From a virus (lineage: Duplodnaviria > Caudoviricetes), in the IMG/VR virus record IMGVR_UViG_3300050029_000207, positions 1 through 58,746 of that record: a stretch of 58,746 bases of DNA; one strand, written 5' to 3'. Below the pieces are notes generated by a model. That model was not told the origin of the DNA. It saw only the letters and a list, made by a program, of their open reading frames with translations, and did no database searches. How positions within the stretch are numbered: the stretch's first letter is position 1; the number at the start of each line of letters is the position of its first letter. Shown piece after piece: positions 1 to 58,558 of this stretch. The translations under genes were made by a program, and so were the position numbers.

Positions 1-127
1 CAAAATCTGGCCGGAATAATCCGCCTATCTGCCCGCAGTGCAAATCCGAACTCCGGCAAATGAGCACGCTCTGGTCAAAATGTCCTAAATGCGGCATCAG
101 AATAATGAACAGCGTGGCCGCGATGCC
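1..127. repeat. terminal overlap identical to 58620-58746 (circular assembly)
   Basis: 127-nt exact repeat at both ends; an ORF reads across the junction. Confidence 0.95.
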
Positions 128-232
128 CAGCGAAAAAAGCTGAGCCACCGCCGACTAAAATCTATGAATATAAATAACCTTCTCGGACAACTGCCATGCG
201 TAACGGCGGTTGGCTCCGGCGACTGGTTGGGC
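125..232 (-). mobile_element. attC: attC site (integron cassette recombination site)
   Basis: plus strand GCCCAGC-GAAAAAA-GCTGAGC...GCTCCGGC-GACTG-GTTGGGC; imperfect inverted repeat with R and L boxes; left core deviates (AGC for AAC). Confidence 0.85.
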
Positions 233-235: not shown

Positions 236-286
236 CGACTGCAAGGAGAGCGTCCAATAGGCGTTTCTTGCAGTGATTTGTTAAGC
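236..286 (-). mobile_element. attC: truncated attC (one arm only)
   Basis: GCAGTGATTTGTTAAGCGGCG identical to the right end of the 1328-1427 site. Confidence 0.6.
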
Positions 287-307: not shown

Positions 308-751
308 ATGAAAACTAAAATAGAACTGACTGACTCAATCCAAGACGTGCTGTTCAAAATGTCCGAAGGCAATCCCGGCGCTCTGACTGTGTGCCTGGGC
401 ATCCTCGAACACGGCGAGAAAATAGACCCCGACAACGCAATGGGCGGACTCGGAATAATCCTCTCGCTCGACACGCTTGGACTCTACGGCTCAAAAATCT
501 GGATGTTGTTCAGAGACGTGTGTGAAAGCGACCTCGCTCAAATGCTCGCCATGCTGCGTGGGTGGCAACTCGGAATGCTGTCAGAAACCCAAGTGCGTCA
601 CGCGGTCGAAAATCACGGCGATGGCATCAATGTCGCCGACATCTGCCAAAAAGTCACCGAACGTCTGCCGCGCTTCCAACTGAAGCCGCCGAACATAAAA
701 GCTCACCCCACTGCCGCGAAAGCGAGCGTGGACGGCACTGAAAATCTATGA
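308..751 (+). CDS. hypothetical phage protein (cassette cargo); alternative in-frame start at 164 inside attC
   Basis: ORF 89..751; A-rich leader before ATG 308; C-terminus PNIKAHPTAAKASVDGTENL encoded by the next attC arm. Confidence 0.75.
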   Translation: MKTKIELTDSIQDVLFKMSEGNPGALTVCLGILEHGEKIDPDNAMGGLGIILSLDTLGLYGSKIWMLFRDVCESDLAQMLAMLRGWQLGMLSETQVRHAVENHGDGINVADICQKVTERLPRFQLKPPNIKAHPTAAKASVDGTENL

Positions 752-762
752 GTGAAACCAAA
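688..762 (-). mobile_element. attC: partial attC (left arm only)
   Basis: GCCGAAC-ATAAAA-GCTCACC...; 699-762 identical to 52674-52737 of an intact site. Confidence 0.7.
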
Positions 763-918
763 TACGCCACAATGCAAGACCTCGCGGTGTGCTCGTTCAT
801 AAACGCCTCACGCATGGCCGAAGCCGGGCATCTGAAACAGGCATATATGGAAGCCGAATCAGGGCAACGCCAACTGAAAGCGGCGATAGGTGCAATTTCG
901 CCGAACGACCGCGCATGA
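748..918 (+). CDS. small hypothetical protein, 56 aa (MSETKYATMQDLAV...PNDRA)
   Basis: ATGA overlaps with both neighbouring ORFs; below ORF-track cut-off. Confidence 0.6.
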   Translation: MSETKYATMQDLAVCSFINASRMAEAGHLKQAYMEAESGQRQLKAAIGAISPNDRA

Positions 919-999
919 GCCACGCCGCACCAATGACCACCGCCCGCGATAGCGGACTGACGACGCCAATAGGCGTTGGCTCCGTGCGCTTGGTTAGGC
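900..999 (-). mobile_element. attC: attC site
   Basis: GCCGAAC-GACCGC-GCATGAGC...GCTCCGTGC-GCTTG-GTTAGGC. Confidence 0.9.
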
Positions 1000-1346
1000 G
1001 GCGTGCGACAAAACTCTCTGCGTCCGATGTCCTAATAAATCTGCGCGACTGGGCCTGGCTTGAGGCTCGCGTCGAGGCCGAACCGTCAAAGCAAAATATC
1101 TGGCTGGCTGTCCGCGACTGGGCGAACGGAATTGCCGCCAAAAATAAAATTGAACTTACCGCGCCCTGCCCCGAAAACCGCGAACCGCTGACAGACCGGG
1201 ATTTGAGTCTGTCGAATAATTTTGGGAGCGGCGAAAGCCTAGAGCGTGATAAATCTGGCGCAACTATCCATCCGCAAAGTCACCGTTTGGCAAAATGCTC
1301 GCAAGTCCAGATTGCTCCCAATCAGCCGCCTAACGACCGCGCATGA
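915..1346 (+). CDS. hypothetical protein (cassette cargo) starting inside attC
   Basis: ATG at 915 or 933 within attC, reading through GTTAGGC; ends PNDRA in next attC. Confidence 0.6.
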   Translation: MSHAAPMTTARDSGLTTPIGVGSVRLVRRRATKLSASDVLINLRDWAWLEARVEAEPSKQNIWLAVRDWANGIAAKNKIELTAPCPENREPLTDRDLSLSNNFGSGESLERDKSGATIHPQSHRLAKCSQVQIAPNQPPNDRA

Positions 1347-1427
1347 GCCACGCCGCATTAACGACTCCCGCCCGCGATAGCGGAACTGAATGCGCCAACG
1401 GCGGTTCGCAGCAGTGATTTGTTAAGC
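1328..1427 (-). mobile_element. attC: attC site (hybrid arms)
   Basis: GCCTAAC-GACCGC-GCATGAGC...GCAGCAGT-GATTT-GTTAAGC. Confidence 0.8.
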
Positions 1428-1453
1428 GGCGGAATCGTAACACTAAACAAAAA

Positions 1454-1831
1454 ATGAAAACTCAAACCCTCGAAGAATATCACGCCGGGCTAAAGGCTCA
1501 AGGCGTGCCAATCGAACACTGCGCGATGCGCTGCCCGATGTGCGGCACAATCCAAAGCGCGCAAGACCTGATAGCGGCTGGCGCTGGGAAGAACCTCGAT
1601 GAAGTCGAAAAGTATCTCGGCTTCTCCTGTGTCGGAAGATGGACACACCAAAAGCCACCGCCGAAGGAAAAGGGAACACAGCACGGATGCAACTGGACTC
1701 TGGGCGGACTGTTCCAGTGCCACGACCTCACCGTGATAACACCGGACGGCGCGAAGTGTCCCCGCTTCGAGCTATGCACGCCAGAGGAAGCGCAGGCGCA
1801 CATGCACGAGCGCGATACTGTAGCCGCTTAA
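1454..1831 (+). CDS. VVA0879-like Cys-rich phage protein (cassette cargo)
   Basis: CPMCG...FSCVGRW...GCNWTLGGL motifs; stop TAA lies in attC core GCTTAAC. Confidence 0.75.
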   Translation: MKTQTLEEYHAGLKAQGVPIEHCAMRCPMCGTIQSAQDLIAAGAGKNLDEVEKYLGFSCVGRWTHQKPPPKEKGTQHGCNWTLGGLFQCHDLTVITPDGAKCPRFELCTPEEAQAHMHERDTVAA

Positions 1832-1924
1832 CGAAAAAAGCTGAGCCACCGCCGACCTGCGACGTGAACCGCGATAGCGGAACGGACAGCGCCAACGGCG
1901 GTTGGCTCCGGCGACTTGTTAGGC
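1826..1924 (-). mobile_element. attC: attC site
   Basis: GCTTAAC-GAAAAAA-GCTGAGC...GCTCCGGC-GACTT-GTTAGGC; near-identical to 58228-58326. Confidence 0.95.
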
Positions 1925-1951
1925 TGCAACTCGTGAACTGACATAAAATCT

Positions 1952-2203
1952 ATGGAAAACAAAACTGAAACAACTCGGTTCCATGTTGAAAAACGAAACG
2001 GCATCATCGCCGTGTATGACATGAAACATCCGAAATATGATCCAGACAGGCAAGGCTGCCACTCTGACCTGCCGTGGGTAGTCGCGGCGTGGCACGGATA
2101 CAACGACGCCAAAGAAGGATGGTGTCTGTACGACTGGTAAATCTTAAAAGCTGAAAATCTATGTGCCATGCTAAATGCGAAGTGGCCTAACGATCCGAAC
2201 TGA
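1952..2203 (+). pseudogene. cassette cargo gene with probable premature TAA at 2138-2140 (or an intact 62-aa gene)
   Basis: frame continues ILKAENLCAMLNAKWPNDPN* into the next attC as neighbouring cassettes do. Confidence 0.5.
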
Positions 2204-2296
2204 GACACCCGCGACCTATGACTCTCGAAAAACCAGAAACCTTTACGGACAACCCGCAAGCGCCAACGCGGGTTGTCTCGAGTGAGTCTGTTAGGC
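2185..2296 (-). mobile_element. attC: attC site
   Basis: GCCTAAC-GATCCG-AACTGAGACACCCGCG...CGCGGGTTGTCTCGAGT-GAGTCT-GTTAGGC. Confidence 0.85.
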
Positions 2297-2601
2297 CGAC
2301 GGCAACATCGGAACAACTCTACGGAATATCGGAGCAGCCGAAACCGACCTGCCCGATGATAGACTCCGTGATAGCCGACCTGCAAAAGTGCTACCGCGAA
2401 ATGAATCGGTGGGAACGGCACAAAGACGACGCCGAATATCTGGCGCAAGTGCTGGACACCGTGGCGTGGATAATCGGAAACATGGAGCCAGGCCTAGAAA
2501 AAATCCGAGACAATGCAGACAAAATACGCGGATGGGGTCAGGAATGGAAAGACCTCGCCAAAGAACACGCGCCGAAACCGGACGAAACGGAGTCGGCCTA
2601 A
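2218..2601 (+). CDS. hypothetical helical protein (cassette cargo) starting inside attC
   Basis: ATG in attC loop; PTCPMIDSVI...IRGWGQEW; stop in next core. Confidence 0.75.
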   Translation: MTLEKPETFTDNPQAPTRVVSSESVRPTATSEQLYGISEQPKPTCPMIDSVIADLQKCYREMNRWERHKDDAEYLAQVLDTVAWIIGNMEPGLEKIRDNADKIRGWGQEWKDLAKEHAPKPDETESA

Positions 2602-2703
2602 CGAAAAAAGCTGAGCCACCCGCGACTAAAATCTATGCAAATCAATAACCTTCTCGGATTACTGACAGCGCCAACGCGCATTGGCTCCGGCGACTTGTTA
2701 GGT
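2596..2703 (-). mobile_element. attC: attC site
   Basis: GCCTAAC-GAAAAAA-GCTGAGC...GCTCCGGC-GACTT-GTTAGGT. Confidence 0.9.
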
Positions 2704-2729
2704 GCGGACGTGATAACTGAATAAAAATT

Positions 2730-3026
2730 ATGAAAATAAAAATACCGGCGGTGGAAAAAGAAGTCTGCGACATATGCGGACGCGATGGAATACTTGAAAC
2801 ATGCGTGGTGTGTGGAAACCGATACTGCCTGATCTGCCACTGCTATCTTCCGGGCTGCATGGTGCGCCCCGACGTGTGCAAGAAGTGCGACAGCCGCGCC
2901 GACGTGAATCAAATCTCGAAACGCTTCGGGCTGCTCATCCACGACCTATGCAAACAGCGCGAGGCCGAACTGAAACAACTAGCACCTAACAATGTTATTA
3001 GGCCAAACCCGGAATCAGATCACTAA
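2730..3026 (+). CDS. multi-CxxC zinc-binding protein (attI-proximal cassette cargo)
   Basis: CDIC, CVVC, CLIC, CKKC; reads through ACCTAAC into attI-like site. Confidence 0.75.
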   Translation: MKIKIPAVEKEVCDICGRDGILETCVVCGNRYCLICHCYLPGCMVRPDVCKKCDSRADVNQISKRFGLLIHDLCKQREAELKQLAPNNVIRPNPESDH

Positions 3027-3027: not shown

Positions 3028-3309
3028 ATGAAATACTGGCGCACAAGTGGTTATCGAAAGGCAGCAAGGCGAAGAGGGATTGAGGCTTACTATCGCAAAA
3101 AGGCAGCGTCGGAAGCCATTCCTGAAAACGAAAATGTGTGCAAGCCGAAAATTCGCCACTCATTGAAGACGATTTTGAAATTCGACCATGAACCGCAGAT
3201 GACTTTGACCGTTGACATTCTGCCGTGGGGCGGCTGGTCAATTTCTCCGACGGCAATCGGGAAGAAAATTCAACAGGCCATGATCGGCTATGCTGCTACC
3301 GCCGCCTGA
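3028..3309 (+). CDS. basic hypothetical protein occupying the usual intI position
   Basis: ATG 2 nt after previous stop; 93 aa; no tyrosine-recombinase motifs. Confidence 0.6.
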   Translation: MKYWRTSGYRKAARRRGIEAYYRKKAASEAIPENENVCKPKIRHSLKTILKFDHEPQMTLTVDILPWGGWSISPTAIGKKIQQAMIGYAATAA

Positions 3310-6951: not shown

Positions 6952-9506
6952 CAGTAGGCGATTACGTTGGTAATTATACCACCACCGATTTGAAAACTCA
7001 CACCGTGCGGCCCGACAGCGTTGGTGATGATTCCCGCCACAGTGCCGCTCCAACCGGCTTGTGCGCCAACAGCAAACCCGCTGGCGGTGACGGTGCCAGA
7101 ACTGATAAGCGCGGCTACGGAAACAGTCCCGTTATTCGATATGGACATCGCGTTAAATGGTCCGACGTTTTCTTTCCATGTTTTGAACAACCAGCCATAC
7201 GATGGCGTTAAGGTTTCTGTGACAGCAAAAATACCCTCTGATTCGTCCCCGATTGCCGGACTGACGACTGACAGAACTTCGTCCGCTGCCCCTACGGAAA
7301 ATGTCGGTGCCAAAACTTGGAAGCGTCTGGTGGCATTAGCAAGCCCGACTCCGACATTGCCGTTTGTGGTGCTTAGAACAGTTCCCTTCAACAGGTTTCC
7401 TGGAATTGCCCCATTCGCGTCGGCAATTACAGCCAAATCCGGCCGTATTGTGCCGGCCCCATGATCAAGCAACAGGCCGTTCCCCCCAAGCAAAGTGTTC
7501 CAGCCCACACTTGTCGCTGTCGCGTTTGCACTAACAGTAATCGCCGAATCGGCGGTGCGGGAGTTGTAACCAGTGAAGGTGTTTTTCCAGATTTTAGCAC
7601 CTGTAACATATCCAAGGTAAATGCTGTTTGTGCAGTAATCCCAGTTGAGCAAATTGTTTTCAATAATTGGGTCTGTGACCAGAACGGAAGCCGTGCCATT
7701 CAGCATAAGCCAGGATTGATTGGTTGCTCCAGCATTGCACTGAATGTCGTTTGCAGCAATGACAGGCTTCAGGTTGCGCCAAACGGTCAGTGCGGGCGCG
7801 GCACCAATGTAATTGTTTTTTGAATAAACGAACCCGCCGGCACCCGGCACCATGTCAACACTTGTTCCAAGTCCGTTGGGGAAACTGTTGTCCTCGATTA
7901 TCAGGGTGTCGCTGACGTTCGTTACGGTTATTTTATTTAGAAGAAAAGTGTTGTGCTTAATGCTGAAGCAAGTGACCTGCGCGTCAGCATCGGCAGAAAT
8001 AAAAACATTGCAGTCTTGGCCGAAATAGCAGTTTTCAATCGCACTCTCAATGATGCTGCCACTCGCAGAACCGTTAATTGAAATTGCGTTTGTAACTGTT
8101 CCAAAGAAACTGAAACCAGAAATTGACTGGCGACTGAATGAGCCACAGTTCGTGATTGTAATAATGTTAGTCACGTAGTAGCCAACAAAGGTGGCGTTAT
8201 CTCCGACCAGAGTATTTGCGTTCGTCAGCACAAGTCCATTCGTGACGATTCCATAAGTCCCCTTTGGAAAAAAGAGTGTGCAGTTTTTATAGTTGTTCAA
8301 AAACCACTGAGTGGCTGGACCATCATTTGCAATGCCATCACCTTTTACCGAGCCAAAAGATTTGATATTAACCCATGTGTTGGTGATGAGGTTTGCTGCG
8401 TTTTGATTCGTAACTCCAGCCCCATTCCCACTAAACGAGGTCGCCGACACTGTGCCCAGTGTCGCGTTTCCGCCATTCGTCACCGATGCTGAAAGGATGT
8501 TTGAATCTTGCGCCGTCACACCGTTGGCCGCTTGGACGCCGGTCAAGGCCGAGCCATTGTTCGCCGCGAGCAGAGACAGCGCGGCGTTCGTCGGCTGAAA
8601 CGAGTTGGTGGCTCCAGTCCCGGAGATCATTTGGTTCACGGATACGCCGTGGTCGTTGGTTCCTGCGCCCACGTTGCCGATGTAATTTCCCGCCGCGCTG
8701 ATGGATGCTTTGCCGCTGGCGAAACTGGTGATGCCGTTGGACGCGAAACTGACCCCGTTCACGGAAGCGTCCCCATTCTCGTCAAGCAAGAAAATGCCGT
8801 TCGCGTTTTCCAACGCCACCTGGTTTGGATTGGCGGTTGTGCCGAGCCGCAGTTTCGTTCCCCATTGGTCCGGCCCGATAATGGTGGTGTAGTTGGTGCT
8901 GTGGCCGTCAATCGTCCCGGTGTTTTTCAGCGTGATGACCCCCGTGGCGTCCGTCACCACGCTCGAATCAACCGCCAGCACATTCGTCCCGCCGACGTTG
9001 GTCGAAGTCAGGCCGGTGCCGGCGGAAATGATAGAAGAAGAATATACCGCAAGCTTTGAATCAATTTGCGACATCGTATAGTAATTTGTTGCCGGATCAA
9101 TTGGCAGTTTCCCACTTCCTATCAGCGATGCAATTGGAACCGTGTTCGACAATCCCGCCGGAACGGTGACAGTCCAGGCAGTTCCACTGCCATCATTTGC
9201 ATAAAGCTTGTATCTTCCCCACAAGATGTTGGTGAATGAGAAATATCCGCTTGTTGATTCTTGAGCAAGAATAGGATCATCGCTAACAAGATTCCCATTC
9301 CATGTCCTGTTGACTGGATATATGATCTCAAGAACCATTTGAACATTTGTGTTAGGCTGAAGTCCAAAGTTGGTTGAGCGGCCAGATAGGACATTTGCCT
9401 GCGCTCGGCACACGAGGCAGGAGGCAAGCACAAGCAGGAAAACTGAAAATGCTTTCATTGGATAAATTTGCCTCAGTTTCAATGATAAGGAAAGTTTTTT
9501 GTTCAT
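6951..9506 (-). CDS. tailspike-like beta-helix (pectate lyase superfamily) protein with signal peptide; possible start 9458
   Basis: VNIKSFGSVKGDGIANDGPA...LFFPKGTY; Asn-ladder repeats; MKAFSVFLLVLASCLVCRAQA. Confidence 0.75.
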   Translation of the reverse strand: MNKKLSLSLKLRQIYPMKAFSVFLLVLASCLVCRAQANVLSGRSTNFGLQPNTNVQMVLEIIYPVNRTWNGNLVSDDPILAQESTSGYFSFTNILWGRYKLYANDGSGTAWTVTVPAGLSNTVPIASLIGSGKLPIDPATNYYTMSQIDSKLAVYSSSIISAGTGLTSTNVGGTNVLAVDSSVVTDATGVITLKNTGTIDGHSTNYTTIIGPDQWGTKLRLGTTANPNQVALENANGIFLLDENGDASVNGVSFASNGITSFASGKASISAAGNYIGNVGAGTNDHGVSVNQMISGTGATNSFQPTNAALSLLAANNGSALTGVQAANGVTAQDSNILSASVTNGGNATLGTVSATSFSGNGAGVTNQNAANLITNTWVNIKSFGSVKGDGIANDGPATQWFLNNYKNCTLFFPKGTYGIVTNGLVLTNANTLVGDNATFVGYYVTNIITITNCGSFSRQSISGFSFFGTVTNAISINGSASGSIIESAIENCYFGQDCNVFISADADAQVTCFSIKHNTFLLNKITVTNVSDTLIIEDNSFPNGLGTSVDMVPGAGGFVYSKNNYIGAAPALTVWRNLKPVIAANDIQCNAGATNQSWLMLNGTASVLVTDPIIENNLLNWDYCTNSIYLGYVTGAKIWKNTFTGYNSRTADSAITVSANATATSVGWNTLLGGNGLLLDHGAGTIRPDLAVIADANGAIPGNLLKGTVLSTTNGNVGVGLANATRRFQVLAPTFSVGAADEVLSVVSPAIGDESEGIFAVTETLTPSYGWLFKTWKENVGPFNAMSISNNGTVSVAALISSGTVTASGFAVGAQAGWSGTVAGIITNAVGPHGVSFQIGGGIITNVIAY

Positions 9507-9509
9507 GAT

Positions 9510-11738
9510 TTATTGTTCAATCTGCGAATCAACCACCGTCACGCTCGCCCCGGTGCCGGAAACGTCCGTGATGGAATTGATCGTGTTGGGATTCACCGGC
9601 AGCGACCAGAGGTTTGTCGTCGTTGCAACGGCCAAGAATCCCAGCGGAGTCAGCGTATTTGTTCCACGGCCTGGTCGCTGAATGCGAAAGGCGGGCGTGC
9701 CGGTTTCCGCCGAAACAAGCTGGAGCGAGAAAACCCAGGTGCCAACCGTTGCGCCGTTCGTGATGGTCGCCGTTGTGCTACGCTGGGAAATTGTCAGCGG
9801 CTGCGGATCGTAAATCGAAACGGAAATTGTTGGTTGGCCGGCGAAGGTGTAATCGCCGATCAAGGTTGGGGAATACGAGCCGGGATAATTCGTTGCTCCA
9901 AAGACCATTGTCGCGTCATTCGTCACCATCAGGTAGCCAAGCAGATTGCTTGAAACTGCACCAGGTCCGATATTATAGGTTCCCGGCATCAACAGCTTGT
10001 AGCCGCTGGAAACATTCACAAATTCTCCGTTGTAGTTGTTTGTCCAGATGCCGTTGTAGTTGGTTTCAAAGCCGGTGCCGTTTCTTGCGAACAGCTTGCT
10101 GAATGTGCGCTGGTAGCTTGATCCAATTCCGTTTGGAGAATTGATGGCCACGCCATTAAGCATTACCGGCCCACCATCAAAATTAAATCCGTTGGCGGCA
10201 TAAGCGTTGAATGTGTTGTTGGTCAGGCTGGCGTATGGAGCACCGCCGCTGTCCGGGATGGGGGTGCCGTCAGACCAAACAAACGTCTCGTCGTGAAGCG
10301 CGCGAGCAGTGTTGCCTAGCGCCGTGCTATGCAAGCCGGATGCGGTGTTGCCATACCCGATGGATACGCTGCCACCACCCGATGCGATAGATACCCCTAA
10401 AGCGGTCGCGTAACCCGCCGACGCCGACGACTGACCGGCGGCGAAGGCGTAAGAACCAGATGCGTGAGAGAAGCCAAAGGCCGTGTCGTCAATCGAAGGG
10501 TATGAATCCACAGTCGAATTTGCCGACCGGACGCTAATCCCAAGCACGGACTCCAATCCGCCGTAAATGTTCGTAATCAAATTTCCGGGATCAAATGGCG
10601 GATTGCCTCCAGACAAAGGAACGCCATTGACGGAAAATCCAAAAGTTGAATCCACGTTGCCAGAAACCTTCAGCGCATTGGTGCCGGGATCGTTGATGTT
10701 GATGGCTACGCCGTTGCTTGAGTGAATCAGGAAAGTGAAATCTTTCGCCGACGTGAAAGTTCCGGCGGTGCCATCGTTCCAAGCCCAGACTCCGCTGTTT
10801 CCGCTGATGTTGTTGCTCACGCCGCACGCAAATGAGTTGTTGGCGAAGGTGGTCGAACTGTCAATCAGGTTGTTTCTCCCGCCGACGATAGTTGAGTAAT
10901 CGGCATGGCCGAGATTTATGTGGCTGTTGATGTAGTTGTTGTTGCCGCCAAAGATTGCGCTGCCCTCGACGTTCTGCGAGATGTCGTTGGACGACCCGCC
11001 AAGCGTCGCGGTCCACCATTCGCCGTAAATCTGGCCATTATTAAATCCAATGTTCACGCCACCTTTGGCAGCTCCACCAGAATTTCTCTCGGATGACATT
11101 GACAACACGTCCAGTTCGTTCGATGGGTCGTAAGCGTGTGTTTTGCTGAATGAGATTGTAATCGCGTTGTGCAGACTGGTGTTTGTGCCAGTGCCGTTCA
11201 AAAGCGGAATGGCGTTGGATGCAATGCTGCCGGCAAGTGAAGCGATGACATTTGACCCGGTGGCCGACAGTCCGGCCAGATTCGTGTTGATGGCCGAGTA
11301 AAGCAGGTTGGACTGCGCGGCGGTCAGGCCGCTGCCGGTTCCGCCACTGGGCGCTGCCCAGTAGTAACCCGTCGCGTCGTTGGTCTTATAGGGAATCTGC
11401 CCGTTCGCCGTCGCACCGTTCGTTTTAACCACCGATGTCAGCAGCGCGAAGTTGCCGTTGATCTTGGCGAACGCGCCCGGCAGCGAGTCGCCCTTCTGGA
11501 TGTTGTTCGTTTTAACTGACTGTGCCGGCCCTGATACCACCGCGTTGGTGATGACGAGGACACTGTTGGAATACACGTTTGCATTCGTCATCACGAAAGC
11601 CGTGAGTGTGTTGGTCAGGCTGTTGGTCGTCAGCGTGGACGTATCCACAACCTGAAACGTGAGTCCGGCGCGCATCTTCGTTGCCAGCAAAAGAATCACC
11701 AGCGTTATCAGAATTAATAGTGTTTTTTTCATAATCAA
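9510..11738 (-). CDS. fibre/adhesin-like protein with signal peptide and YadA-head-like repeats
   Basis: MKKTLLILITLVILLLATKMRA; repeats ASGSYAFAAG/ASGGGSVSIG/ASGLHSTALG. Confidence 0.7.
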   Translation of the reverse strand: MIMKKTLLILITLVILLLATKMRAGLTFQVVDTSTLTTNSLTNTLTAFVMTNANVYSNSVLVITNAVVSGPAQSVKTNNIQKGDSLPGAFAKINGNFALLTSVVKTNGATANGQIPYKTNDATGYYWAAPSGGTGSGLTAAQSNLLYSAINTNLAGLSATGSNVIASLAGSIASNAIPLLNGTGTNTSLHNAITISFSKTHAYDPSNELDVLSMSSERNSGGAAKGGVNIGFNNGQIYGEWWTATLGGSSNDISQNVEGSAIFGGNNNYINSHINLGHADYSTIVGGRNNLIDSSTTFANNSFACGVSNNISGNSGVWAWNDGTAGTFTSAKDFTFLIHSSNGVAININDPGTNALKVSGNVDSTFGFSVNGVPLSGGNPPFDPGNLITNIYGGLESVLGISVRSANSTVDSYPSIDDTAFGFSHASGSYAFAAGQSSASAGYATALGVSIASGGGSVSIGYGNTASGLHSTALGNTARALHDETFVWSDGTPIPDSGGAPYASLTNNTFNAYAANGFNFDGGPVMLNGVAINSPNGIGSSYQRTFSKLFARNGTGFETNYNGIWTNNYNGEFVNVSSGYKLLMPGTYNIGPGAVSSNLLGYLMVTNDATMVFGATNYPGSYSPTLIGDYTFAGQPTISVSIYDPQPLTISQRSTTATITNGATVGTWVFSLQLVSAETGTPAFRIQRPGRGTNTLTPLGFLAVATTTNLWSLPVNPNTINSITDVSGTGASVTVVDSQIEQ

Positions 11739-33249: not shown

Positions 33250-33450
33250 TCATAGCTTTGGGCCTTGCTTACCTGGAACTTCCCGGAACATCTTTGAGAA
33301 GTCAGACTTGTGAAAGATTCCAGTCACCCACCCTTTTCCCCACTCAGTCATCAGTGGTGCCGGAACAGTAATGACATCGTCTCCGTCAACGAATACCGTG
33401 AATCTCGCTCCGGTCTTTATGTCGGCAAATTTCTGACTGAGCATTTTCAT
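33250..33450 (-). CDS. hypothetical protein
   Basis: ATGA overlap with terminase stop. Confidence 0.55.
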   Translation of the reverse strand: MKMLSQKFADIKTGARFTVFVDGDDVITVPAPLMTEWGKGWVTGIFHKSDFSKMFREVPGKQGPKL

Positions 33451-34781
33451 AATCCTAATTCCTCCGGCGATAGCCAGTCCGGCACCCAAAGGTCAGTTGG
33501 CGCAGCCTCGACTGACGACGAGCCGCTGAAGCCAGCCGCCGACGCAAACCCGGTGAAGTTCATCTTCTTGGCGACGTAGTAGCGAAGAGCGTCCATTGCG
33601 TGATCGTTTTCCTTGATCGGCTCATCCTTCTCGGGCTTCCACACGTAACTTTCCATTTCATTAATCACCTCAACGCACGAGGGATCAATCGTCAACCGAG
33701 GTTTTCCGTCTCCTTGAACCTTGAGCCGGTTCTGAATGGCCGCAACACCGTCCAGGATGATGTGCTTGCCAGTGCTCTCCGGCGTGCGCCCCTTGGCTCC
33801 CTGCGCGTTCAAGCCGCGTGCCCGCAGGTCGGCTATCAGACCCGCTGCGGCCTCGTCCACGGCCAGCAGCGGGCTGCCAATTGACCGCGCCCAGTCCTCG
33901 GCGATGTTTACGAAATCTTCTGGCCGAACACCGCGCTTGTAAAACTCCCGGAATACATGCAGCCGACCATCGCTGTCCTCGCCGATCTCCAGGATCACCG
34001 CCGGATTAGTAAAGCCTTCATCAATCGCCAGGCCAAACTCCCTGAACTCGCTACGCGGACGCTCTAGAACATGAATGGAGGGGCTAAACGTATCGTAAAC
34101 GGCACCTTCGGCGGTCGCCCATTGACCGTAAAGGAGGCGTTGGCGGCGGACGCCGGTCAGCATCTTGTCGGCCATATCCATACGGCGCACGCCTTCCGGG
34201 GTCATGCTGCCGGCGTCGTCGTAAAGTTCTGGGTTATCCTTCTGGCTGCCGGTGATGAGCTTGAGGGATTTACGGCTGCGGATCCAATGGCGTGAGGAGG
34301 AAGGATTGCAGCAAGAATATATTTGAGGGTGTTTAAAAACACTTCCGCGACCAGTGACGCGTGACGCCATCATCTCCCATTGGCTCTCTTTTAATTCCTC
34401 CGCCTGGCACGCGTGAATTACAGACCATTCGGAAGACAGTAGCTTTTCCGGCTTGTCGGCACCAATCAGAACGATCTCAGATCCGTTCCTGAAAACGTAA
34501 CGGTCAACCTTGCTTCCGCCGAGCTTCTGAATCCCAAGCCCTGCCGTAACGCGGTCGAAAGTCTTTACAACGCTGTCCTGAAGGCTTGCGTATGTAGCCC
34601 TCACCATTGCGATGTGGCAGCCCGCAACCTGGGTTGCGATGATTGCCGTCTTGTAGCAAAGAGCAACCGTCTTTCCTGTGTCGGCTGGCGAGCAAAGAAT
34701 CATCTCATGTGACTTTTCACGAATCGCAGCCAGGTTTGCCCCCCTGAAGCGCAACCTGCTGATTGGGGGGAGATTGCTCAC
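33447..34781 (-). CDS. terL: terminase large subunit (PBSX-like)
   Basis: SPADTGKT Walker A, CCNPSS..HWI, LAIDEGFTNP, NDHAMDALRY. Confidence 0.92.
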   Translation of the reverse strand: MSNLPPISRLRFRGANLAAIREKSHEMILCSPADTGKTVALCYKTAIIATQVAGCHIAMVRATYASLQDSVVKTFDRVTAGLGIQKLGGSKVDRYVFRNGSEIVLIGADKPEKLLSSEWSVIHACQAEELKESQWEMMASRVTGRGSVFKHPQIYSCCNPSSSRHWIRSRKSLKLITGSQKDNPELYDDAGSMTPEGVRRMDMADKMLTGVRRQRLLYGQWATAEGAVYDTFSPSIHVLERPRSEFREFGLAIDEGFTNPAVILEIGEDSDGRLHVFREFYKRGVRPEDFVNIAEDWARSIGSPLLAVDEAAAGLIADLRARGLNAQGAKGRTPESTGKHIILDGVAAIQNRLKVQGDGKPRLTIDPSCVEVINEMESYVWKPEKDEPIKENDHAMDALRYYVAKKMNFTGFASAAGFSGSSSVEAAPTDLWVPDWLSPEELGL

Positions 34782-38021: not shown

Positions 38022-38216
38022 TCAAGAAGGCAAGTCTTTTCTTCTTAAATTCCCCTCGCTGAAAATGTGCAAAATTCCACGACCGTCCTCGACGACCCGT
38101 CTGATTTTGCCAGACTTCTTTTGGAATGTGCTGACGACTACCCCTTCAAAGGAGTAGTCTCCGCCTGTCTTTTCAACGCTGTCACCAACTGCAAACTGGC
38201 ATTCAATTCCTGGCAT
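38022..38216 (-). CDS. small SH3-like hypothetical protein
   Basis: FAVGDSVEKTGGDYSFEGVVV. Confidence 0.6.
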   Translation of the reverse strand: MPGIECQFAVGDSVEKTGGDYSFEGVVVSTFQKKSGKIRRVVEDGRGILHIFSEGNLRRKDLPS

Positions 38217-41424: not shown

Positions 41425-41426
41425 GA

Positions 41427-41612
41427 TTACTGGACGATGATTTGGTTCGTGGTCTGTCCACAAGACTTGCAGGTCTCGTGACCATGAAACTGGTCACGCG
41501 GGACTGTTGTGTGAGAACCACAAACTAGACACTCAATCAGGACGTTAATCTCGGGATCCGATTGGTCAAGTTGAGTTTTGTCCTCGACGACCGGCGGACA
41601 GGCAGTGTTCAT
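41427..41612 (-). CDS. zinc-ribbon protein
   Basis: CLVCG...CKSCG. Confidence 0.55.
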   Translation of the reverse strand: MNTACPPVVEDKTQLDQSDPEINVLIECLVCGSHTTVPRDQFHGHETCKSCGQTTNQIIVQ

Positions 41613-52535: not shown

Positions 52536-52726
52536 AGAACCAAGCCGCTCAATCCCTCGGACGCCTTGGCGGTCTGGCGAAGTCGAAAGCCAAGACTGCT
52601 GCCGCGCGTCGGAACGCAAAACTTGGTGGACGCCCGAAGAAACCCAAACGCGCCGCCCGGCTGCCCAACGACCAAGCTCACCCCACTGCCGCGAAAGCGA
52701 GCGTGGACGGCACTGAAAATCTATGA
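52532..52726 (+). CDS. small basic phage protein
   Basis: AAQSLGRLGG..KS.AKTAAARRNAKLGGRPKK; C-terminal tail encoded by attC. Confidence 0.7.
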   Translation: MKNQAAQSLGRLGGLAKSKAKTAAARRNAKLGGRPKKPKRAARLPNDQAHPTAAKASVDGTENL

Positions 52727-52790
52727 GTGAAACCAAAAGCATCGAATCGGAAACGCTAGCGGCAGTTGCGGGTGCAGCGCGTGGTTCGGC
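52663..52790 (-). mobile_element. attC: attC site (distal end of array)
   Basis: GCCCAAC-GACCAA-GCTCACC...GGTGCAGC-GCGTG-GTTCGGC. Confidence 0.85.
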
Positions 52791-52995
52791 TCACCGCGAC
52801 TTCCTCGCATTCCTTCTCTACGCATCGGAAAGCGGTCGGCGTGGAGAACTCCCGTGCCGATGGGGAACGCTGCGCGACGACCTGAAAGAGAAGTGGCTGA
52901 ACACCGCAGACACGAAAATGAACGAATGGCTGGCGAGCGAAGAAGAAGCCCGCAAGAGCAGAGATGCCCATAATCCGAGGGCGTTCTTCTGTTGA
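52723..52995 (+). CDS. hypothetical protein (cassette cargo) starting inside attC
   Basis: ATG in attC loop; stop immediately before next core. Confidence 0.7.
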   Translation: MSETKSIESETLAAVAGAARGSAHRDFLAFLLYASESGRRGELPCRWGTLRDDLKEKWLNTADTKMNEWLASEEEARKSRDAHNPRAFFC

Positions 52996-53120
52996 GCCGA
53001 ACGACCAAGCTCACCCACAGCCGGGTGAGCGGGCAACCAACTGAAACCAAATCTTTATGACACCAGAAACGAATAAATCCGAAGCGCCACCGGCTGTTGC
53101 GGTGCAGCGCGTTGTTAGCC
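52996..53120 (-). mobile_element. attC: attC site
   Basis: GCCGAAC-GACCAA-GCTCACCCACAGCCGG...CCGGCTGTTGCGGTGCAGC-GCGTT-GTTAGCC. Confidence 0.9.
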
Positions 53121-53275
53121 CTCGCTGCCCCCAATGTGGCAAACCAATCGAAACACCTGTGGCGAGAGAAATCACGCAGCGTGATAATCGAAGCCCACGT
53201 GGAATACGGACAAATCGATATGACTTTTGTAGCGTCCAATGCGGGGCACACTACCAAATGGGATGCGAGGGCTAA
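53057..53275 (+). CDS. YacG-like zinc-finger protein (cassette cargo) starting inside attC
   Basis: CPQCGKPI...DFCSVQC; stop in next core. Confidence 0.7.
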
Positions 53276-53320
53276 TCGCAGAGTCCAGCCATGCCGGGCC
53301 AGTGACGCCCGGACTCGGCT
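53270..53320 (-). mobile_element. attC: degenerate attC left arm
   Basis: GGCTAAT-CGCAGA-GTCCAGC-CATGCCGGG; no partner arm nearby. Confidence 0.55.
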
Positions 53321-56603: not shown

Positions 56604-56690
56604 GCAACTTCCCTCGCCTGACCGCATACTGCTTAACGGCTCGCCCGCGTGTGCGGAACGGGTCGGCGGCAGGCGAGGGGATCAATTTAT

Positions 56691-56782
56691 GAGCGTGTGG
56701 CGGAATGCAAATACGCAGCGGCAAGCTGAGTGTGGACCGGATGCCGGAACACCAATTGCAGGTTCAAATCCTGCCGCGCTCA
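56691..56782 (+). ncRNA. tRNA-like RNA without canonical anticodon arm
   Basis: acceptor GAGCGTG/CGCGCTC-A, D-arm GCG..CGC, T-arm GCAGG-TTCAAAT-CCTGC. Confidence 0.7.
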
Positions 56783-56801: not shown

Positions 56802-57686
56802 ATGAAAATAACAAACAAATTAAATCTACCTGATAACCTCGTCCGCGCCGTCACTTACAGCGACTACAACCGGGGGGATGTTGATTATAGCGTAACGGGT
56901 CTTCTTAACCCGCCACGAATCCTTGCGCTGAAGGCCAAGCATCACGACAAGATCGAAGAGGACGCCAGCGACCTCATATTCGCCGCCATCGGCTCGGCAG
57001 CCCACGAGCTTTTCCGTCGGTCGTCTGACGGCATCAACAAGATCGTTGAAAAGCGGTTCTTCGCAACCGTTGACGGCAAGAAGATCAGCGGTCAGGTGGA
57101 CTTGGCTGAAGACGGCGGCATGATAGAGGATTTCAAGATTTCATCCGTATGGGCGATGACTCACGACGCCAAAGAATCTTGGGAACAACAACTTAACATT
57201 TACCGTTGGCTGTGCAAGCAGAACGGAATCGAGATTAAGGCGTTGAGAATCATTTGCGTTGGCAGGGACTGGTCAAAACGCGAAGCGGCTCGAGATTCAA
57301 ATTACCCCCAGGCGCAGGTGGTCGTGTTCAACCTGAATGTCTGGGACTTGGCCGAAACCGAACGCTTCATCAAAGAGCGCATTGCGCTTCACGAGGCGGC
57401 CAAGGTAACGCTGCCGGAATGCTCCCCTGAAGACCGGTGGCAAAAGGATGACGCCTTTGCAGTGATGAAGGTTGGAAGGAAGTCAGCCGTCAAGATTCAC
57501 CACAAGCGCGAACTGGCGGATCAGCACCTAGAAGTCGCCGGAAAGGGGCATTACCTTCAGGAGCGCAAGGGGACCAGTATCCGCTGTGAGAGCTACTGCT
57601 CGGTGGCACCATTCTGTGAATGGTGGCAGAACAACAAGCTTAAAGAAGATCCGGCAACGGTGATTAGTCCGGAAGAAGCTATCTGA
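56802..57686 (+). CDS. PD-(D/E)XK (Cas4/RecB-like) exonuclease
   Basis: YSVTGLL, IGSAAHE, ISGQVDL, IEDFK, QQLNIY, RCESYCSVAPFC. Confidence 0.85.
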   Translation: MKITNKLNLPDNLVRAVTYSDYNRGDVDYSVTGLLNPPRILALKAKHHDKIEEDASDLIFAAIGSAAHELFRRSSDGINKIVEKRFFATVDGKKISGQVDLAEDGGMIEDFKISSVWAMTHDAKESWEQQLNIYRWLCKQNGIEIKALRIICVGRDWSKREAARDSNYPQAQVVVFNLNVWDLAETERFIKERIALHEAAKVTLPECSPEDRWQKDDAFAVMKVGRKSAVKIHHKRELADQHLEVAGKGHYLQERKGTSIRCESYCSVAPFCEWWQNNKLKEDPATVISPEEAI

Positions 57687-57742
57687 ACCGCGAAGCGGAA
57701 CTGAAGGCGCTATCGGCGGTTAGCTCCATGCGGTTGTTGGGC
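57684..57742 (-). mobile_element. attC: attC right arm only
   Basis: TGAACCGCGAAGCGGAACTGA...GGCGGTTAGCTCCATGC-GGTT-GTTGGGC, homologous to right halves of intact sites. Confidence 0.7.
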
Positions 57743-57765: not shown

Positions 57766-58215
57766 ATGAAAACGAAAAAAGTCAACCGATATTACTGCGA
57801 CTTCTGCAAGAAATCGAACTGCTCTGGCGGCGCGATGGCTCTCCACGAAAGACACTGCACGCTCAATCCAAACCGGACGTGTCGTATGTGTAAAGAACCT
57901 CGCAACATACCAGAACTGGTGAAGCTGATTCCGAGTGCTGAACAGTTCCACAAAACCACAATAGACCACGGCGAAGGATACGGCTCTTGCAACTGTGACC
58001 ACTATGAAGGATGGGGCGATACCTACAAAGAACCGCTCCAAAAAGTGCGTGATGCCTGCAATGAATGTCCGGTGTGCATCTTTGCTGTGCTCAGGCAATC
58101 AAAAGTGCCAATCTACATCTTTGACTTCGACTTCAAAAAAGAGGTCGAATCATGGTGGGCTGAAAAGAATGAAGAAGCACGCGAACAGGAAGAATATGCG
58201 GCAATCCACGGATGA
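57766..58215 (+). CDS. multi-Cys zinc-binding protein (cassette cargo)
   Basis: YYCDFCKK...HERHCTLNPNRTCRMC...CPVCI. Confidence 0.75.
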   Translation: MKTKKVNRYYCDFCKKSNCSGGAMALHERHCTLNPNRTCRMCKEPRNIPELVKLIPSAEQFHKTTIDHGEGYGSCNCDHYEGWGDTYKEPLQKVRDACNECPVCIFAVLRQSKVPIYIFDFDFKKEVESWWAEKNEEAREQEEYAAIHG

Positions 58216-58227: not shown

Positions 58228-58326
58228 GCCTAACGAAAAAAGCTGAGCCACCGCCGACTCGCGACGTGAACCGCGATAGCGGAACTGACAGCGCCAACGG
58301 CGGTTGGCTCCGGCGACTTGTTAGGC
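58228..58326 (-). mobile_element. attC: attC site
   Basis: GCCTAAC-GAAAAAA-GCTGAGC...GCTCCGGC-GACTT-GTTAGGC. Confidence 0.95.
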
Positions 58327-58346
58327 CATGGCTCAACGAACAAAAT

Positions 58347-58544
58347 ATGAAAACACTGACTGATACCGACCCGATGCCCTTCGGAAAATACAAGGGCGAA
58401 CCAATGCAAGACGTGCCTGCGAGCTATCTGCACTATCTCTGGCAGAATGGCCTCGCCGCCGACAAGCAATCTAACGTGGCGGACTACATCCGCCGAAACA
58501 TAAACGCTCTGAAATTGGAGCATAAAGATGGTGTCTGGGCGTAG
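58347..58544 (+). CDS. DUF3820-family protein (cassette cargo)
   Basis: MPFGKYKG..MQDVPASYLHYL. Confidence 0.85.
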   Translation: MKTLTDTDPMPFGKYKGEPMQDVPASYLHYLWQNGLAADKQSNVADYIRRNINALKLEHKDGVWA

Positions 58545-58558
58545 TGGCCTAACAAAAA

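What the first reader, a model, noticed from the sequence alone, without database searches (positions are those of the whole stretch)
900..2990. Core-site complementarity is shifted by one site, a footprint of real cassette mobilisation
Seen: the right end of each attC pairs with the left core of the NEXT site better than with its own. Pairs: GTTAGGCGGC(993)/GCCGCCTAAC(ends 1334); GTTAAGCGGC(1421)/GCCGCTTAAC(1832); GTTAGGCCGAC(2290)/GTCGGCCTAAC(2602); GTTAGGTGC(2697)/GCACCTAAC(2990); GTTCGGCTCA(52784)/TGAGCCGAAC(53002); GTTAGCCCTCGC(53114)/GCGAGGGCTAAT(53276); GTTAGGCCA(58320)/TGGCCTAAC(58553). The site at 125-232 is an exception. Established: this pattern is expected when a circular cassette is opened at G|TT. 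It defines each unit as attC + downstream plus-strand gene + RYYYAA, and argues against generic REP-like repeats.
Basis: partly seen in the sequence, partly recalled or inferred. Interest (0 to 1): 0.85.

Follow-up and report, generated by a model that had tools for sequence, protein, structure and literature searches.

The report
Integron cassette array in a phage
A complete phage genome carries a string of small genes separated by the recombination sites that soil and peat bacteria use in their integrons, and the way the site ends match shows the genes were moved as cassettes, something reported so far in only a few phages.

Summary
All seven listed pairs are at the stated coordinates. Over all 10 neighbouring pairs, the right core of a site pairs with the left core of the next site far better than chance (summed contiguous pairing 72, against 41 ± 6 for permuted pairings; 2 of 100,000 permutations reach 72). 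Units circularised at AA|C fold better than in-array or shuffled sites (0 of 20,000).

The sites are true integron attC sites. One is 100% identical over 101 nt to attCs in Verrucomicrobial chromosomal integrons that lie beside intI genes. A profile built only from those bacterial sites finds 8 window sites, all on the + strand. Three bacterial arrays show the same shift.

The window is a complete, circularly assembled 58.6-kb phage with no integrase. The array therefore lacks its own integrase and crosses the contig junction (52.6 kb to 2,990).

The shift is textbook integron biology, and attC clusters in phages were reported in 2023. Three points are apparently new. The phage genes lie on the attC bottom strand, opposite to bacterial cassettes. 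The array ends at an attI-like junction. The same site family recurs in about 20 other viral contigs.

The parts
52663..52790 (+). Long-loop attC-type site S1. Left core GCCCAAC at 52663-52669; right core GTTCGGC at 52784-52790. An ORF start (ATG 52723) lies in the loop.
   Evidence: bulges on the 3' arm. The same site type occurs next to attI in a bacterial integron (L147). The bacterial-site profile does not find it.
52996..53120 (+). Long-loop attC-type site S2. Left core GCCGAAC; right core GTTAGCC. An ORF start (ATG 53057) lies in the loop.
53270..53276 (+). Lone left core GGCTAAT. It ends the first sub-array and pairs with the right core at 53114.
   Evidence: 11 of 12 matches, 12 contiguous if G.T is allowed.
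57682..57742 (+). Half site: right arm and right core GTTGGGC only.
   Evidence: profile positions 38-95, E = 5.8e-4; repeat family D3.
58228..58326 (+). attC site S5.
   Evidence: 100% identical over 101 nt (58228-58328) to sites in bacterial loci L158, L134, L048 and L040. E = 4.5e-28.
58547..58553 (+). Lone left core GCCTAAC. It ends the second sub-array and pairs with the right core at 58320.
   Evidence: 9 contiguous.
It pairs with itself.
   Evidence: E = 3.9e-14.
240..286 (+). Half site: right arm and right core GTTAAGC at 280-286.
688..770 (+). Left half of a long-loop site. Left core GCCGAAC at 688-694; ATG 748 in the loop. No right core.
   Evidence: repeat D9: 685-762 is 92% identical to 52660-52737.
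900..999 (+). attC site S8.
   Evidence: (E = 1.7e-5).
1328..1427 (+). attC site S9.
   Evidence: (E = 2.5e-8).
1826..1924 (+). attC site S10. 95% identical to S5.
   Evidence: repeat D5; E = 1.3e-26.
2185..2296 (+). attC site S11. An ORF start (ATG 2218) lies in the loop.
   Evidence: (E = 1.1e-5).
2596..2703 (+). attC site S12.
   Evidence: (E = 2.4e-16).
2984..3012 (+). End of the array. A lone left core ACCTAAC (2984-2990) is followed by an attI-like stretch.
   Evidence: 16 of 17 matches plus one gap to the attI region of a bacterial integron (L147), at nearly the same offset from AA|C; 4 of 2,000 shuffles reach the score; the junction is conserved in 5 related viral loci.
1454..1831 (+). 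Cassette gene on the attC bottom strand, of the VVA0879 / phrog_32023 family.
   Evidence: E = 3.3e-45; 101.6 bits, cut-off 37; codon score +0.13.
58347..58544 (+). Cassette gene on the attC bottom strand, QSregVF_b-like.
   Evidence: PF12843, 32.5 bits, cut-off 22; +0.31.
308..751 (+). Cassette ORF, no known family.
   Evidence: +0.21.
915..1346 (+). Cassette ORF. Its true start is uncertain and may lie inside site S8.
   Evidence: +0.06.
1952..2140 (+). Cassette ORF, no known family.
   Evidence: +0.19.
2218..2601 (+). Cassette ORF. It starts in the loop of S11 and ends in the TAA of the next left core.
   Evidence: +0.22.
2730..3026 (+). Cysteine-rich ORF of the last cassette. It reads across the junction at 2990.
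   Evidence: +0.04.
52723..52995 (+). Cassette ORF. It starts in the loop of S1.
   Evidence: +0.12.
53057..53275 (+). Cassette ORF. It starts in the loop of S2.
   Evidence: DUF7576, 23.3 bits, below the cut-off of 27; -0.12, the one negative + ORF.
57766..58215 (+). Cassette ORF, no known family.
   Evidence: +0.10.
3028..3309 (+). Phage backbone gene just after the junction. It is conserved next to the same junction in other viral contigs.

Best explanation
The window is a complete tailed-phage genome. Its early, plus-strand region holds integron gene cassettes but no integrase: a cluster of attC sites lacking an integrase (CALIN), ending at an attI-like junction.

The repeats are attC sites of the family used by the chromosomal integrons of Verrucomicrobiota, the likely hosts. 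Each cassette reads, on the + strand: C, attC body, right core GTTRRRY, gene, left core RYYYAA.

The inferred mechanism is as follows. An integron integrase folds the bottom strand of attC, here the + strand, and cuts between A and C of the 5' AAC. When a cassette is excised or inserted, its own right core meets the RYYYAA at its far end. Within an array, therefore, the right core of one site is complementary to the left core of the next.

The phage encodes no such enzyme. The integrase must have been supplied in trans, most likely by an infected host.

What is shown and what is inferred:
- Shown: the sites, their structure and strand, their identity to bacterial attCs, the shift, the missing integrase and the coding strand.
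- Inferred: that recombination took place in the phage context, that a host IntI did it, and that it still happens.
For: The element is a phage.
- The contig closes on itself (1-127 = 58620-58746).
- The record is classed as a virus with direct terminal repeats and 100% completeness.
- PHROGs finds DNA polymerase, primase/helicase, sliding clamp, large terminase and portal.

No integrase is present. PF00589 and TIGR02249 each give 0 matches at E <= 1.

The sites are attC sites.
- A 22-mer taken from the right arm occurs in at least 120 bacterial stretches, mostly Verrucomicrobiae or Limisphaerales MAGs. There are up to 14 copies in 8 kb.
- 5 of 5 such genomes examined encode an integron integrase above the curated cut-off (398.7-422.7 bits against a cut-off of 265).
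- Window 58228-58328 is 100% identical to four bacterial sites.
- A profile built from 41 bacterial sites hits 8 window sites. All are on the + strand, and none lies in the 48-kb backbone.

The structure fits (alignment of 43 sites).
- There is a 7-bp R box, an unpaired spacer and an L-box stem.
- Two bulges lie on the 3' arm, about 6 bp apart.
- The loop is variable.
- 8 pairs show compensatory changes.

The shift is confirmed and is reproduced in three bacterial arrays.

The unit definition holds.

The cassette genes are real and lie on the + strand.
- Family matches.
- A codon model trained on the phage's own backbone genes scores 13 of 14 + ORFs positive and 10 of 10 - ORFs negative.

The cassettes belong to the phage. 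In run X1 the cassette unitigs have depth 19.1-22.4, against 23.1 for the 42-kb backbone contig.

There is comparative evidence for mobility in viruses.
- A 771/773-nt unit running from AA|C to AA|C is 99% identical (764 of 773) in two viral contigs from different samples. Its flanks are unrelated (60% and 58%, which is the level of unrelated sequence under this scoring).
- L162 and L163 have an identical backbone after AAC but different cassettes before it.
- Two further (near-)complete viral records with such arrays have a terminase match.
- 0 of 5 viral records examined have an intI match.
Against: - No experiment was done, and no read-level junction was seen. The only public runs on offer were contigs. 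Their joints between sites cannot be told apart from other organisms' arrays.
- No cassette body is shared between viral and bacterial arrays (0 pairs among 45 viral and 377 bacterial intervals).
- Two window cassette proteins were not found in the five bacterial genomes searched. Exchange with a host array is therefore not shown.
- Only one cassette is shared between two viral contigs. There, the body of the next site is also 98% identical (82 of 84), although its 12-nt spacer is not (7 of 12). The AA|C model does not predict this by itself.
- Three of the 10 next-site pairs are weak by Watson-Crick pairing.
- Two half sites, one left-half site and three lone cores point to decay. The stretch from 58553 to 130 has a gene but no attC.
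- The order of cassettes in the assembly rests on the assembler, because unitigs break inside the sites.
- The host is inferred only from identity of the sites.
Confidence: 0.8

Rival explanations
1. Relic. The phage lineage once picked up a piece of a bacterial integron, with attI and cassettes but without intI, through illegitimate or homologous recombination. The shift is a fossil of recombination that took place in bacteria, and nothing moves in the phage.
For: - There is no integrase.
- There are half sites and lone cores.
- The attI-like stretch resembles a bacterial attI.
- Qi et al. 2023, section 3.4, propose off-target homologous or illegitimate recombination as a route into phage genomes.
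Against: - Phage cassette genes lie on the opposite strand, relative to attC, from bacterial ones. The counts (bottom strand: top strand) are 19:2 in other viral loci, 5:2 in the window and 29:255 in bacteria.
- The cassette genes use the phage's codon usage, and one belongs to a PHROG family.
- Related phages carry different cassettes at one conserved junction.
- One cassette is shared by two otherwise unrelated viral loci, with boundaries at AA|C.
Confidence: 0.12
2. The cassettes are shuffled in phages by general homologous recombination between the highly conserved attC arms, not by an integron integrase.
For: - The arms are near-identical over 20-100 nt among sites.
- Phages recombine readily.
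- In the L012/L016 case, identity also covers the next site's body.
Against: - Crossovers in the conserved arms would not keep the variable 8-12-nt extensions of the right core and the next left core complementary. They are complementary, and this includes compensated non-consensus cores.
- In the shared viral cassette, the left boundary falls within about 8 nt of AA|C. The spacer just after the right AA|C is unrelated.
Confidence: 0.05
3. Assembly chimera. Abundant bacterial attC repeats in the metagenome joined bacterial cassettes to a phage contig.
For: - The attC bins reach a summed depth of 28,519, against about 23 for the phage.
- Unitigs break inside the sites.
- The 127-nt end overlap stops at a site.
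Against: - In X1 the cassette unitigs have the same depth as the phage backbone (19.1-22.4 against 23.1).
- The cassette ORFs share the phage's codon usage.
- The same architecture appears in 21 other viral contigs from other samples, including a second record with direct terminal repeats.
Confidence: 0.02
4. The repeats are phage regulatory hairpins or REP-like repeats that only resemble attC.
For: The sites lie between genes of one transcription unit, and some loops hold start codons.
Against: - They are 100% identical to sites in arrays beside intI genes.
- They have all the structural marks of attC.
- No Rfam family matches them.
Confidence: 0.01

Closest known systems
Sedentary chromosomal integron arrays. 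Here: those of Verrucomicrobiota MAGs, loci L155-L158. Classic example: the Vibrio cholerae superintegron.
   Same: - The same attC family, up to 100% identity.
- The same hairpin with two bulges on one arm.
- The same shift of core complementarity.
- The same unit boundaries.
- A lone core at the attI junction.
   Different: - The phage has no intI.
- The genes lie on the attC bottom strand, not the top strand.
- The array is split into three sub-arrays with decayed sites.
- It sits in a phage early region.
Clusters of attC sites lacking an integrase (CALINs) in phage genomes. Qi et al. 2023, Front Microbiol, PMC9892861. I read the abstract and sections 2.1 and 3.4.
   Same: attC clusters without an integrase in virulent phages. 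That paper showed that 5 of 6 tested phage attCs are recombined by IntI1.
   Different: - That survey covered 10,705 NCBI phage genomes and found integron parts in 21. It did not cover metagenomic viruses or Verrucomicrobia; 'Verrucomicrobia' and 'IMG' each occur 0 times in its text.
- The text I read describes clusters of at least two sites.
- Here there are 9 complete sites plus halves and lone cores, identity to a host site family, an attI-like junction, and reversed gene polarity.
- I could not see its supplementary tables. They may bear on gene orientation and boundaries.
CALINs in bacterial genomes. Cury et al. 2016, IntegronFinder, PMC4889954. Seen only in the search listing.
   Same: attC clusters with no integrase nearby.
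   Different: Those are chromosomal or plasmid-borne. This one lies in a complete phage.
Promoter-stem-loop 'mobile regulatory cassettes' of T4-type phages.
   Same: Small early phage genes flanked by repeated hairpin elements, thought to drive modular shuffling.
   Different: Those repeats are phage-specific and are thought to act through homologous recombination. The repeats here are the host's integron sites.

Membership tests
Integron attC recombination site | Conserved cores: 5'-RYYYAAC at one end and 5'-GTTRRRY at the other. | tested here: met
   7 of the 9 complete sites have consensus or near-consensus cores. Deviating cores (GTTCGGC, GTTAGCC, GCCGAAC, GCCCAGC) are compensated in the partner core.
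Integron attC recombination site | An imperfect hairpin with an R box and an L box separated by an unpaired central spacer. | tested here: met
   The R box has 7 bp. 8 nt (left) and 6 nt (right) are unpaired. A stem follows, and 8 of the 21 pairs show compensatory changes.
Integron attC recombination site | Two or three extrahelical bases on the arm opposite the cut AAC. The farthest is a T, about 6 bp from the first (Nivina 2016, Introduction). | tested here: met
   There are bulges at alignment columns 102/103 (C) and 96 (T) on the 3' arm, with 5-6 bp between them. The first is a C here, where the paper says 'usually a G'.
Integron attC recombination site | A variable terminal loop and a total length of 57-141 bp. 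| tested here: met
   The sites are 99-128 nt long (S1 is 128 nt and S2 125 nt).
Integron attC recombination site | Occurs in arrays next to an integron integrase gene somewhere in nature. | tested here: met
   Identical or near-identical sites lie next to TIGR02249-positive genes in 4 of 4 integrons examined.
Integron attC recombination site | Recombined by IntI as a folded bottom strand. | not testable with these tools
   This needs an attC x attI assay.
Complete integron | An intI gene adjacent to the array. | tested here: not met
   there is no tyrosine recombinase anywhere in the 58.6-kb genome.
Complete integron | An attI site at the integrase-proximal end. | tested here: inconclusive
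   - A lone core plus 16 of 17 matches to one bacterial attI region; 4 of 2,000 shuffles reach the score.
- A second phage junction matches another attI at 11 of 12; 115 of 2,000 shuffles reach that.
- Two other phage junctions show no similarity.
Complete integron | A cassette promoter Pc that reads into the array from the attI side. | tested here: not met
   Promoters were not mapped. However, all cassette ORFs point towards the junction, not away from it.
CALIN (cluster of attC sites lacking an integrase) | Two or more attC sites close together, with no integron integrase nearby. | tested here: met

The most novel reading that the evidence does not exclude
Phages of Verrucomicrobiota keep their own pool of 'reversed' integron cassettes. 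In these, attC comes first, the gene lies on the attC bottom strand, and the start codon is sometimes inside the attC loop. The phages also keep an attI-like landing site at the downstream end of an early operon. They borrow the host's integron integrase during infection to swap early, possibly anti-defence, genes. This would be a viral counterpart of the host integrons, which recent work describes as stores of anti-phage defence genes. Because the bottom strand is the sense strand, it would lie on the lagging-strand template wherever genes follow the replication fork, and that would make phage arrays unusually recombinogenic.
Probability: 0.35. Interest if true: 0.85.

Novelty: new variant of a known kind. 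Interest (0 to 1): 0.55.

Why it matters
The shift itself is ordinary. It is a useful, assembly-independent test that a repeat array is a true integron cassette array, and it passes here.

The setting gives it weight. A complete phage without an integrase carries one of the larger attC arrays seen in a virus. The sites are identical to those of likely hosts. The gene polarity is opposite to that of bacterial cassettes, and the same design recurs in some twenty other viral contigs.

If host integrases act on these arrays, integrons are a gene-exchange system shared by phages and bacteria, and not only a bacterial store. This would give a concrete route by which phages renew early and counter-defence genes and by which cassettes cross between cells. 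It would also link phages to hosts in metagenomes through shared attC families.

Tried and rejected
Searches for close relatives of this phage, to compare arrays:
- The backbone protein 3028-3309 alone gave nothing. An alignment of three homologues gave 5 loci.
- The exonuclease 56802-57686 gave 17 loci, but the best identity was 44%.
- The cassette protein 1454-1831 gave one weak partial hit.
- tblastx of the viral loci against the window showed no close relative. Many of its low-score rows are noise.

Searches for window cassettes in bacteria:
- tblastn of 24 + ORFs and 9 - ORFs against all fetched loci found no cassette body in bacterial loci. The many hits of - ORFs cover only attC-encoded stretches.
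- Proteins 1454-1831 and 57766-58215 were not found in five bacterial genomes. With these queries this does not show absence.
- Two exact-pattern scans of metagenome contigs found nothing: the attI-like junction and a 34-mer of cassette 906-1333.

Sequencing runs:
- Only Logan contigs were on offer, no raw reads.
- The joints listed between 1924 and about 2596, and the others, are marked 'between: not known'. They are best read as other organisms' arrays that share the sites. They are not evidence for excision.
- Runs X2, X6 and X8, from other studies, have contigs over 900-1336 or parts of it, with 0-11 differences. They have no depth over 343-684 or 1483-1710. This hints that cassette 906-1333 or a relative exists in other contexts. 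Missing cover in contigs is not evidence, so I do not use it.
- The small word shares of runs X2-X17 say nothing about habitat.

attI similarity: junctions L159 and L161 show none. L162 is marginal (115 of 2,000 shuffles reach its score). One search used two wrong anchors and is superseded.

GC skew gave no replication origin or direction. The lagging-strand idea is therefore untested.

Pfam found nothing for 17 of the 20 array-region ORFs scanned.

ARAGORN found no tRNA, although Rfam did.

Rejected readings: REP-like or regulatory repeats, assembly chimera, and en bloc relic. See the rival explanations.

Literature on whether reversed polarity or an attI-like site in phage arrays is in print:
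- Two full-text searches found only Qi et al. 2023 on integron parts in phages.
- In that paper, 'opposite' and 'reverse' occur 0 times, and 'orientation'/'oriented' occur 3 times, none about genes relative to attC.
- I did not see its supplementary tables.
- The classic papers on the 59-base element and core sites are recalled, not read here.

Full report
WHAT THE WINDOW IS

The 58,746-nt window is the whole record. Its first 127 nt repeat exactly at its end. The genome tool describes it as a virus record with direct terminal repeats and 100% estimated completeness.

PHROGs profiles identify a DNA polymerase (38203-41463, minus strand), primase/helicase, clamp, replication initiator, large terminase (33447-34781) and portal. 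Almost all genes from 3.8 to 52.0 kb lie on the minus strand. A block of small plus-strand genes runs from 52.27 kb across the junction to about 3.7 kb.

THE OBSERVATION

I listed 13 left cores (ending in AAC or a variant) and 11 right cores (starting with GTT), and compared every right core with every left core.

For 53114/53276, 11 of 12 positions match.

Over the 10 next-site pairs the summed contiguous pairing is 72. Random pairings give 41.0 ± 6.1, and 2 of 100,000 reach 72. The nine own-site pairs sum to 39.

In-array flanks give -190.7 and shuffled flanks give -196.6 ± 6.1. None of 20,000 shuffles reaches the observed value.

Cores that depart from the consensus are matched by their next-site partner. 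This is covariation, not shared consensus.

Each complementary pair flanks one gene and lies on a single unitig in the best-holding public run. The result does not rest on repeat resolution by the assembler.

WHAT THE REPEATS ARE

A 22-letter pattern from the right arm occurs in 24 stretches of 21 viral contigs. It also occurs in at least 120 stretches of bacterial genomes. Most of these are MAGs labelled Verrucomicrobiae, Limisphaerales or Pedosphaera. The matches are often tandem, with up to 14 in 8 kb.

All five such genomes that I searched encode integron integrases above NCBI's curated cut-off. In the four integrons I cut out, the arrays begin within a few hundred bases of the integrase gene.

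Window 58228-58328 is identical at all 101 positions to sites in four bacterial loci. A nucleotide profile built only from 41 bacterial sites finds eight sites in the window, with E-values from 4.5e-28 to 5.8e-4. All are on the plus strand, and none lies in the 48-kb backbone. Two further long-loop sites (52663-52790 and 52996-53120) belong to a sub-type that also occurs next to attI in a bacterial integron.

An alignment of 7 window sites and 36 bacterial sites folds into the attC plan: a 7-bp R box, an unpaired spacer, an L-box stem with two bulged bases on the 3' arm about 6 bp apart, and a variable loop. Eight pairs have compensatory changes.

This matches the description in the Introduction of Nivina et al. 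2016 (PMC5027507). There, the recombined bottom strand carries 5'-RYYYAAC at its 5' end and is cut between A and C. It has its extrahelical bases, the farthest a conserved T, on the other arm.

Rfam has no match on the sites.

STRAND AND UNIT

By the position of the bulges, the window's plus strand is the attC bottom strand.

Independently, in 4 of 4 bacterial integrons the strand with the same orientation is the coding strand of intI, with the array upstream of intI. That is the standard divergent layout seen from the bottom strand.

In bacterial arrays, when one cassette body occurs between different neighbours, the site to its left on this strand stays with it. Mean identity is 0.97 for the left site and 0.79 for the right site. 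This holds in 16 of 16 pairs. These are not independent and amount to four cassette families, because several loci overlap.

The three bacterial arrays show the same shift as the phage.

NO INTEGRASE, AND AN attI-LIKE END

Neither the phage-integrase Pfam family nor the integron-integrase family has any match in the phage.

The array ends at 2990 with a lone left core. This is how bacterial arrays end at attI.

The 17 nt that start five bases after the cut match the attI region of one bacterial integron at 16 positions, with one gap, at almost the same offset. Four of 2,000 shuffles and none of 200 backbone 45-mers score as high.

The gene after the junction (3028-3309) is conserved in five other viral loci. 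Each is preceded by RYYYAAC and then a related spacer. Two of them have identical sequence after AAC and unrelated sequence before it. One of those junctions resembles another bacterial attI at 11 of 12 positions, which is marginal. Two others show nothing. I therefore call the junction attI-like, not attI.

The phage region looks like three sub-arrays. Each ends on the right in a lone core (53276, 58553, 2990). There are two half sites and one left-half site. The stretch from 58553 to 130 has a gene but no site, and I cannot explain it.

GENE POLARITY

The cassette genes of the window are on the plus strand, which is the attC bottom strand.
- 1454-1831 is a full-length member of phrog_32023 and of NCBIfam VVA0879.
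- 58347-58544 passes the Pfam threshold of PF12843.
- A codon model trained on 19 long backbone genes scores 13 of 14 plus-strand ORFs positive and 10 of 10 overlapping minus-strand ORFs negative. Held-out small backbone genes score 14 of 15 positive, and their antisense frames 15 of 15 negative.
- At least four genes start inside an attC loop (ATG at 52723, 53057, 748 and 2218).

I used one simple measure on all loci: which strand's longest ORF covers more of the interval between two sites.
- Bacterial loci: 255 intervals for the top strand, 29 for the bottom strand, 39 ties (80 loci used).
- Viral loci other than the window: 2, 19 and 13.
- The window: 2, 5 and 0.

The difference between viral and bacterial loci has Fisher p = 2.7e-15.

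The measure is crude, and the viral contigs were not individually verified as phages. Two of the five I checked are 94% and 100% complete with a terminase match. None of the five has an integron integrase.

Reversed cassettes are not confined to viruses. Next to attI in one bacterial integron, a gene that I recognise from memory as DUF4326-like (not tested) starts in a long-loop attC on the bottom strand. Conversely, from my reading of the sequence, the junction-proximal cassettes of two viral loci appear to carry top-strand ORFs.

EVIDENCE ON MOVEMENT IN PHAGES

- One unit of 771/773 nt, from AA|C of a long-loop site to the AA of the next left core, is 99% identical in two viral contigs from different samples. 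Its own right core and far left core pair perfectly over 10 nt. The 60 nt before it and the 12-nt spacer after it are unrelated.
- Against a clean reading, the body of the next site is also 98% identical. That site sub-type occurs in three viral loci, each time after the same left core. A shared sub-type or a second exchange may be involved.
- No cassette body is shared between viral and bacterial intervals (0 pairs among 45 viral and 377 bacterial intervals).
- Searches for two window cassettes in five bacterial genomes, and two metagenome scans, found nothing.
- Public runs were available only as contigs. In the best holder, the cassette unitigs have the depth of the phage backbone (19-22 against 23), while the site bins sum to thousands. 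This shows how common the site family is in that community. The joints reported there are ambiguous.

MECHANISM

Shown: true attC sites in bottom-strand orientation on the sense strand of a phage early region; unit boundaries at AA|C; no phage integrase.

Inferred: a host integron integrase, supplied in trans during infection, excises and inserts these units. The attI-like junction and the other lone cores are landing points. Only cassettes whose gene reads with the phage's early transcription are kept, and this would give the reversed polarity.

Passages of Richard et al. 2024 (PMC13108822) state that a bottom strand on the lagging-strand template folds and recombines more readily. If phage genes follow the replication fork, the sense-strand position of the bottom strand would have that effect. 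GC skew gave no direction, so this stays a speculation.

COMPARISON WITH WHAT IS KNOWN, AND VERDICT

The shift follows from recombination at one conserved point, and I regard it as textbook. The older papers are recalled only.

Integron parts in phages were reported by Qi et al. 2023. They found them in 21 of 10,705 NCBI phage genomes, including 17 CALINs, and IntI1 recombined 5 of 6 tested phage sites.

Relative to what I read there, the following are new:
- the size of the array;
- the identity to a host site family in a phylum that the paper's main text does not mention (its word count there is 0);
- the attI-like junction;
- the reversed gene polarity;
- the recurrence across many viral contigs.

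The finding is confirmed and its interpretation is supported. As a phenomenon it is known. As an instance it is a notable variant.

Noticed in passing
window 56691-56782 (+): Rfam finds a tRNA (34.9 bits, gathering score 29) inside the plus-strand early region. ARAGORN reported no tRNA in the window.
   Followed up: partly
window 53411-54169 (+): A pentapeptide-repeat protein (PF00805, E = 1.9e-45) is encoded by a 15-nt tandem repeat with 26 register-shifted copies. Its DNA is 80-86% identical to pentapeptide genes of Salmonella, Edwardsiella, Bordetella and Rheinheimera phages. This probably reflects the repeat.
   Followed up: partly
window 44851-45214 (-): A repeat with a 9-nt (sometimes 12-nt) period lies inside ORF 44839-45483. 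It may encode a collagen-like or other tripeptide-repeat protein.
   Followed up: no
window 150-232 and 2622-2703; L018 11337-11227: The loops of several attC sites hold an ATG in the context AAAATCTATG. In sites 125-232 and 2596-2703 it opens similar short frames (M-N/Q-I-N-N-L-L-G...). In 125-232 the frame runs on into the gene at 308.
   Followed up: no
L018 11240-10945 (minus strand as shown); L162 1-185: In two related viral contigs, the cassette next to the attI-like junction seems to carry its ORF on the attC top strand. This is the bacterial polarity, as expected for a recent capture from a bacterial pool.
   Followed up: partly
L147 640-1130 (G002:C5): In a bacterial integron, the cassette next to attI has a gene on the attC bottom strand that starts in the loop of a long-loop attC. 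I read it from memory as DUF4326-like. A second copy of its 3' end lies 900 nt upstream.
   Followed up: partly
window 1825-1938 in runs X1, X2, X6, X8: The summed contig depth over one attC site is 11,500-37,700 in four peat metagenomes, against about 23 for the phage in X1. This site family is extremely abundant in those communities.
   Followed up: no
L026, L037, L065, L075, L085, L100 and others: Several contigs with these Verrucomicrobia-type attC arrays come from MAGs labelled 'uncultured Bifidobacteriaceae'. This looks like a binning or labelling error.
   Followed up: no
window 1-127 = 58620-58746: The terminal repeat is exactly 127 nt and stops at the left core of the attC site at 125. 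This looks like an assembler k-mer overlap of a circular path, not a physical terminal repeat.
   Followed up: no
window 56606-56682 (+): A GC-rich inverted repeat (CCCTCGCCTG...CAGGCGAGGG) with GCTTAAC in its loop lies between the gene ending at 56603 and the tRNA. It may be a terminator or a decayed site.
   Followed up: no
L161 about 9400-10000 (= L003 5434-6060): In one related viral contig, the gene that reads across the attI-like junction is a 208-aa protein. From memory it looks like an MT-A70-type DNA methyltransferase. Qi et al. 2023 noted methyltransferases among phage cassettes.
   Followed up: no
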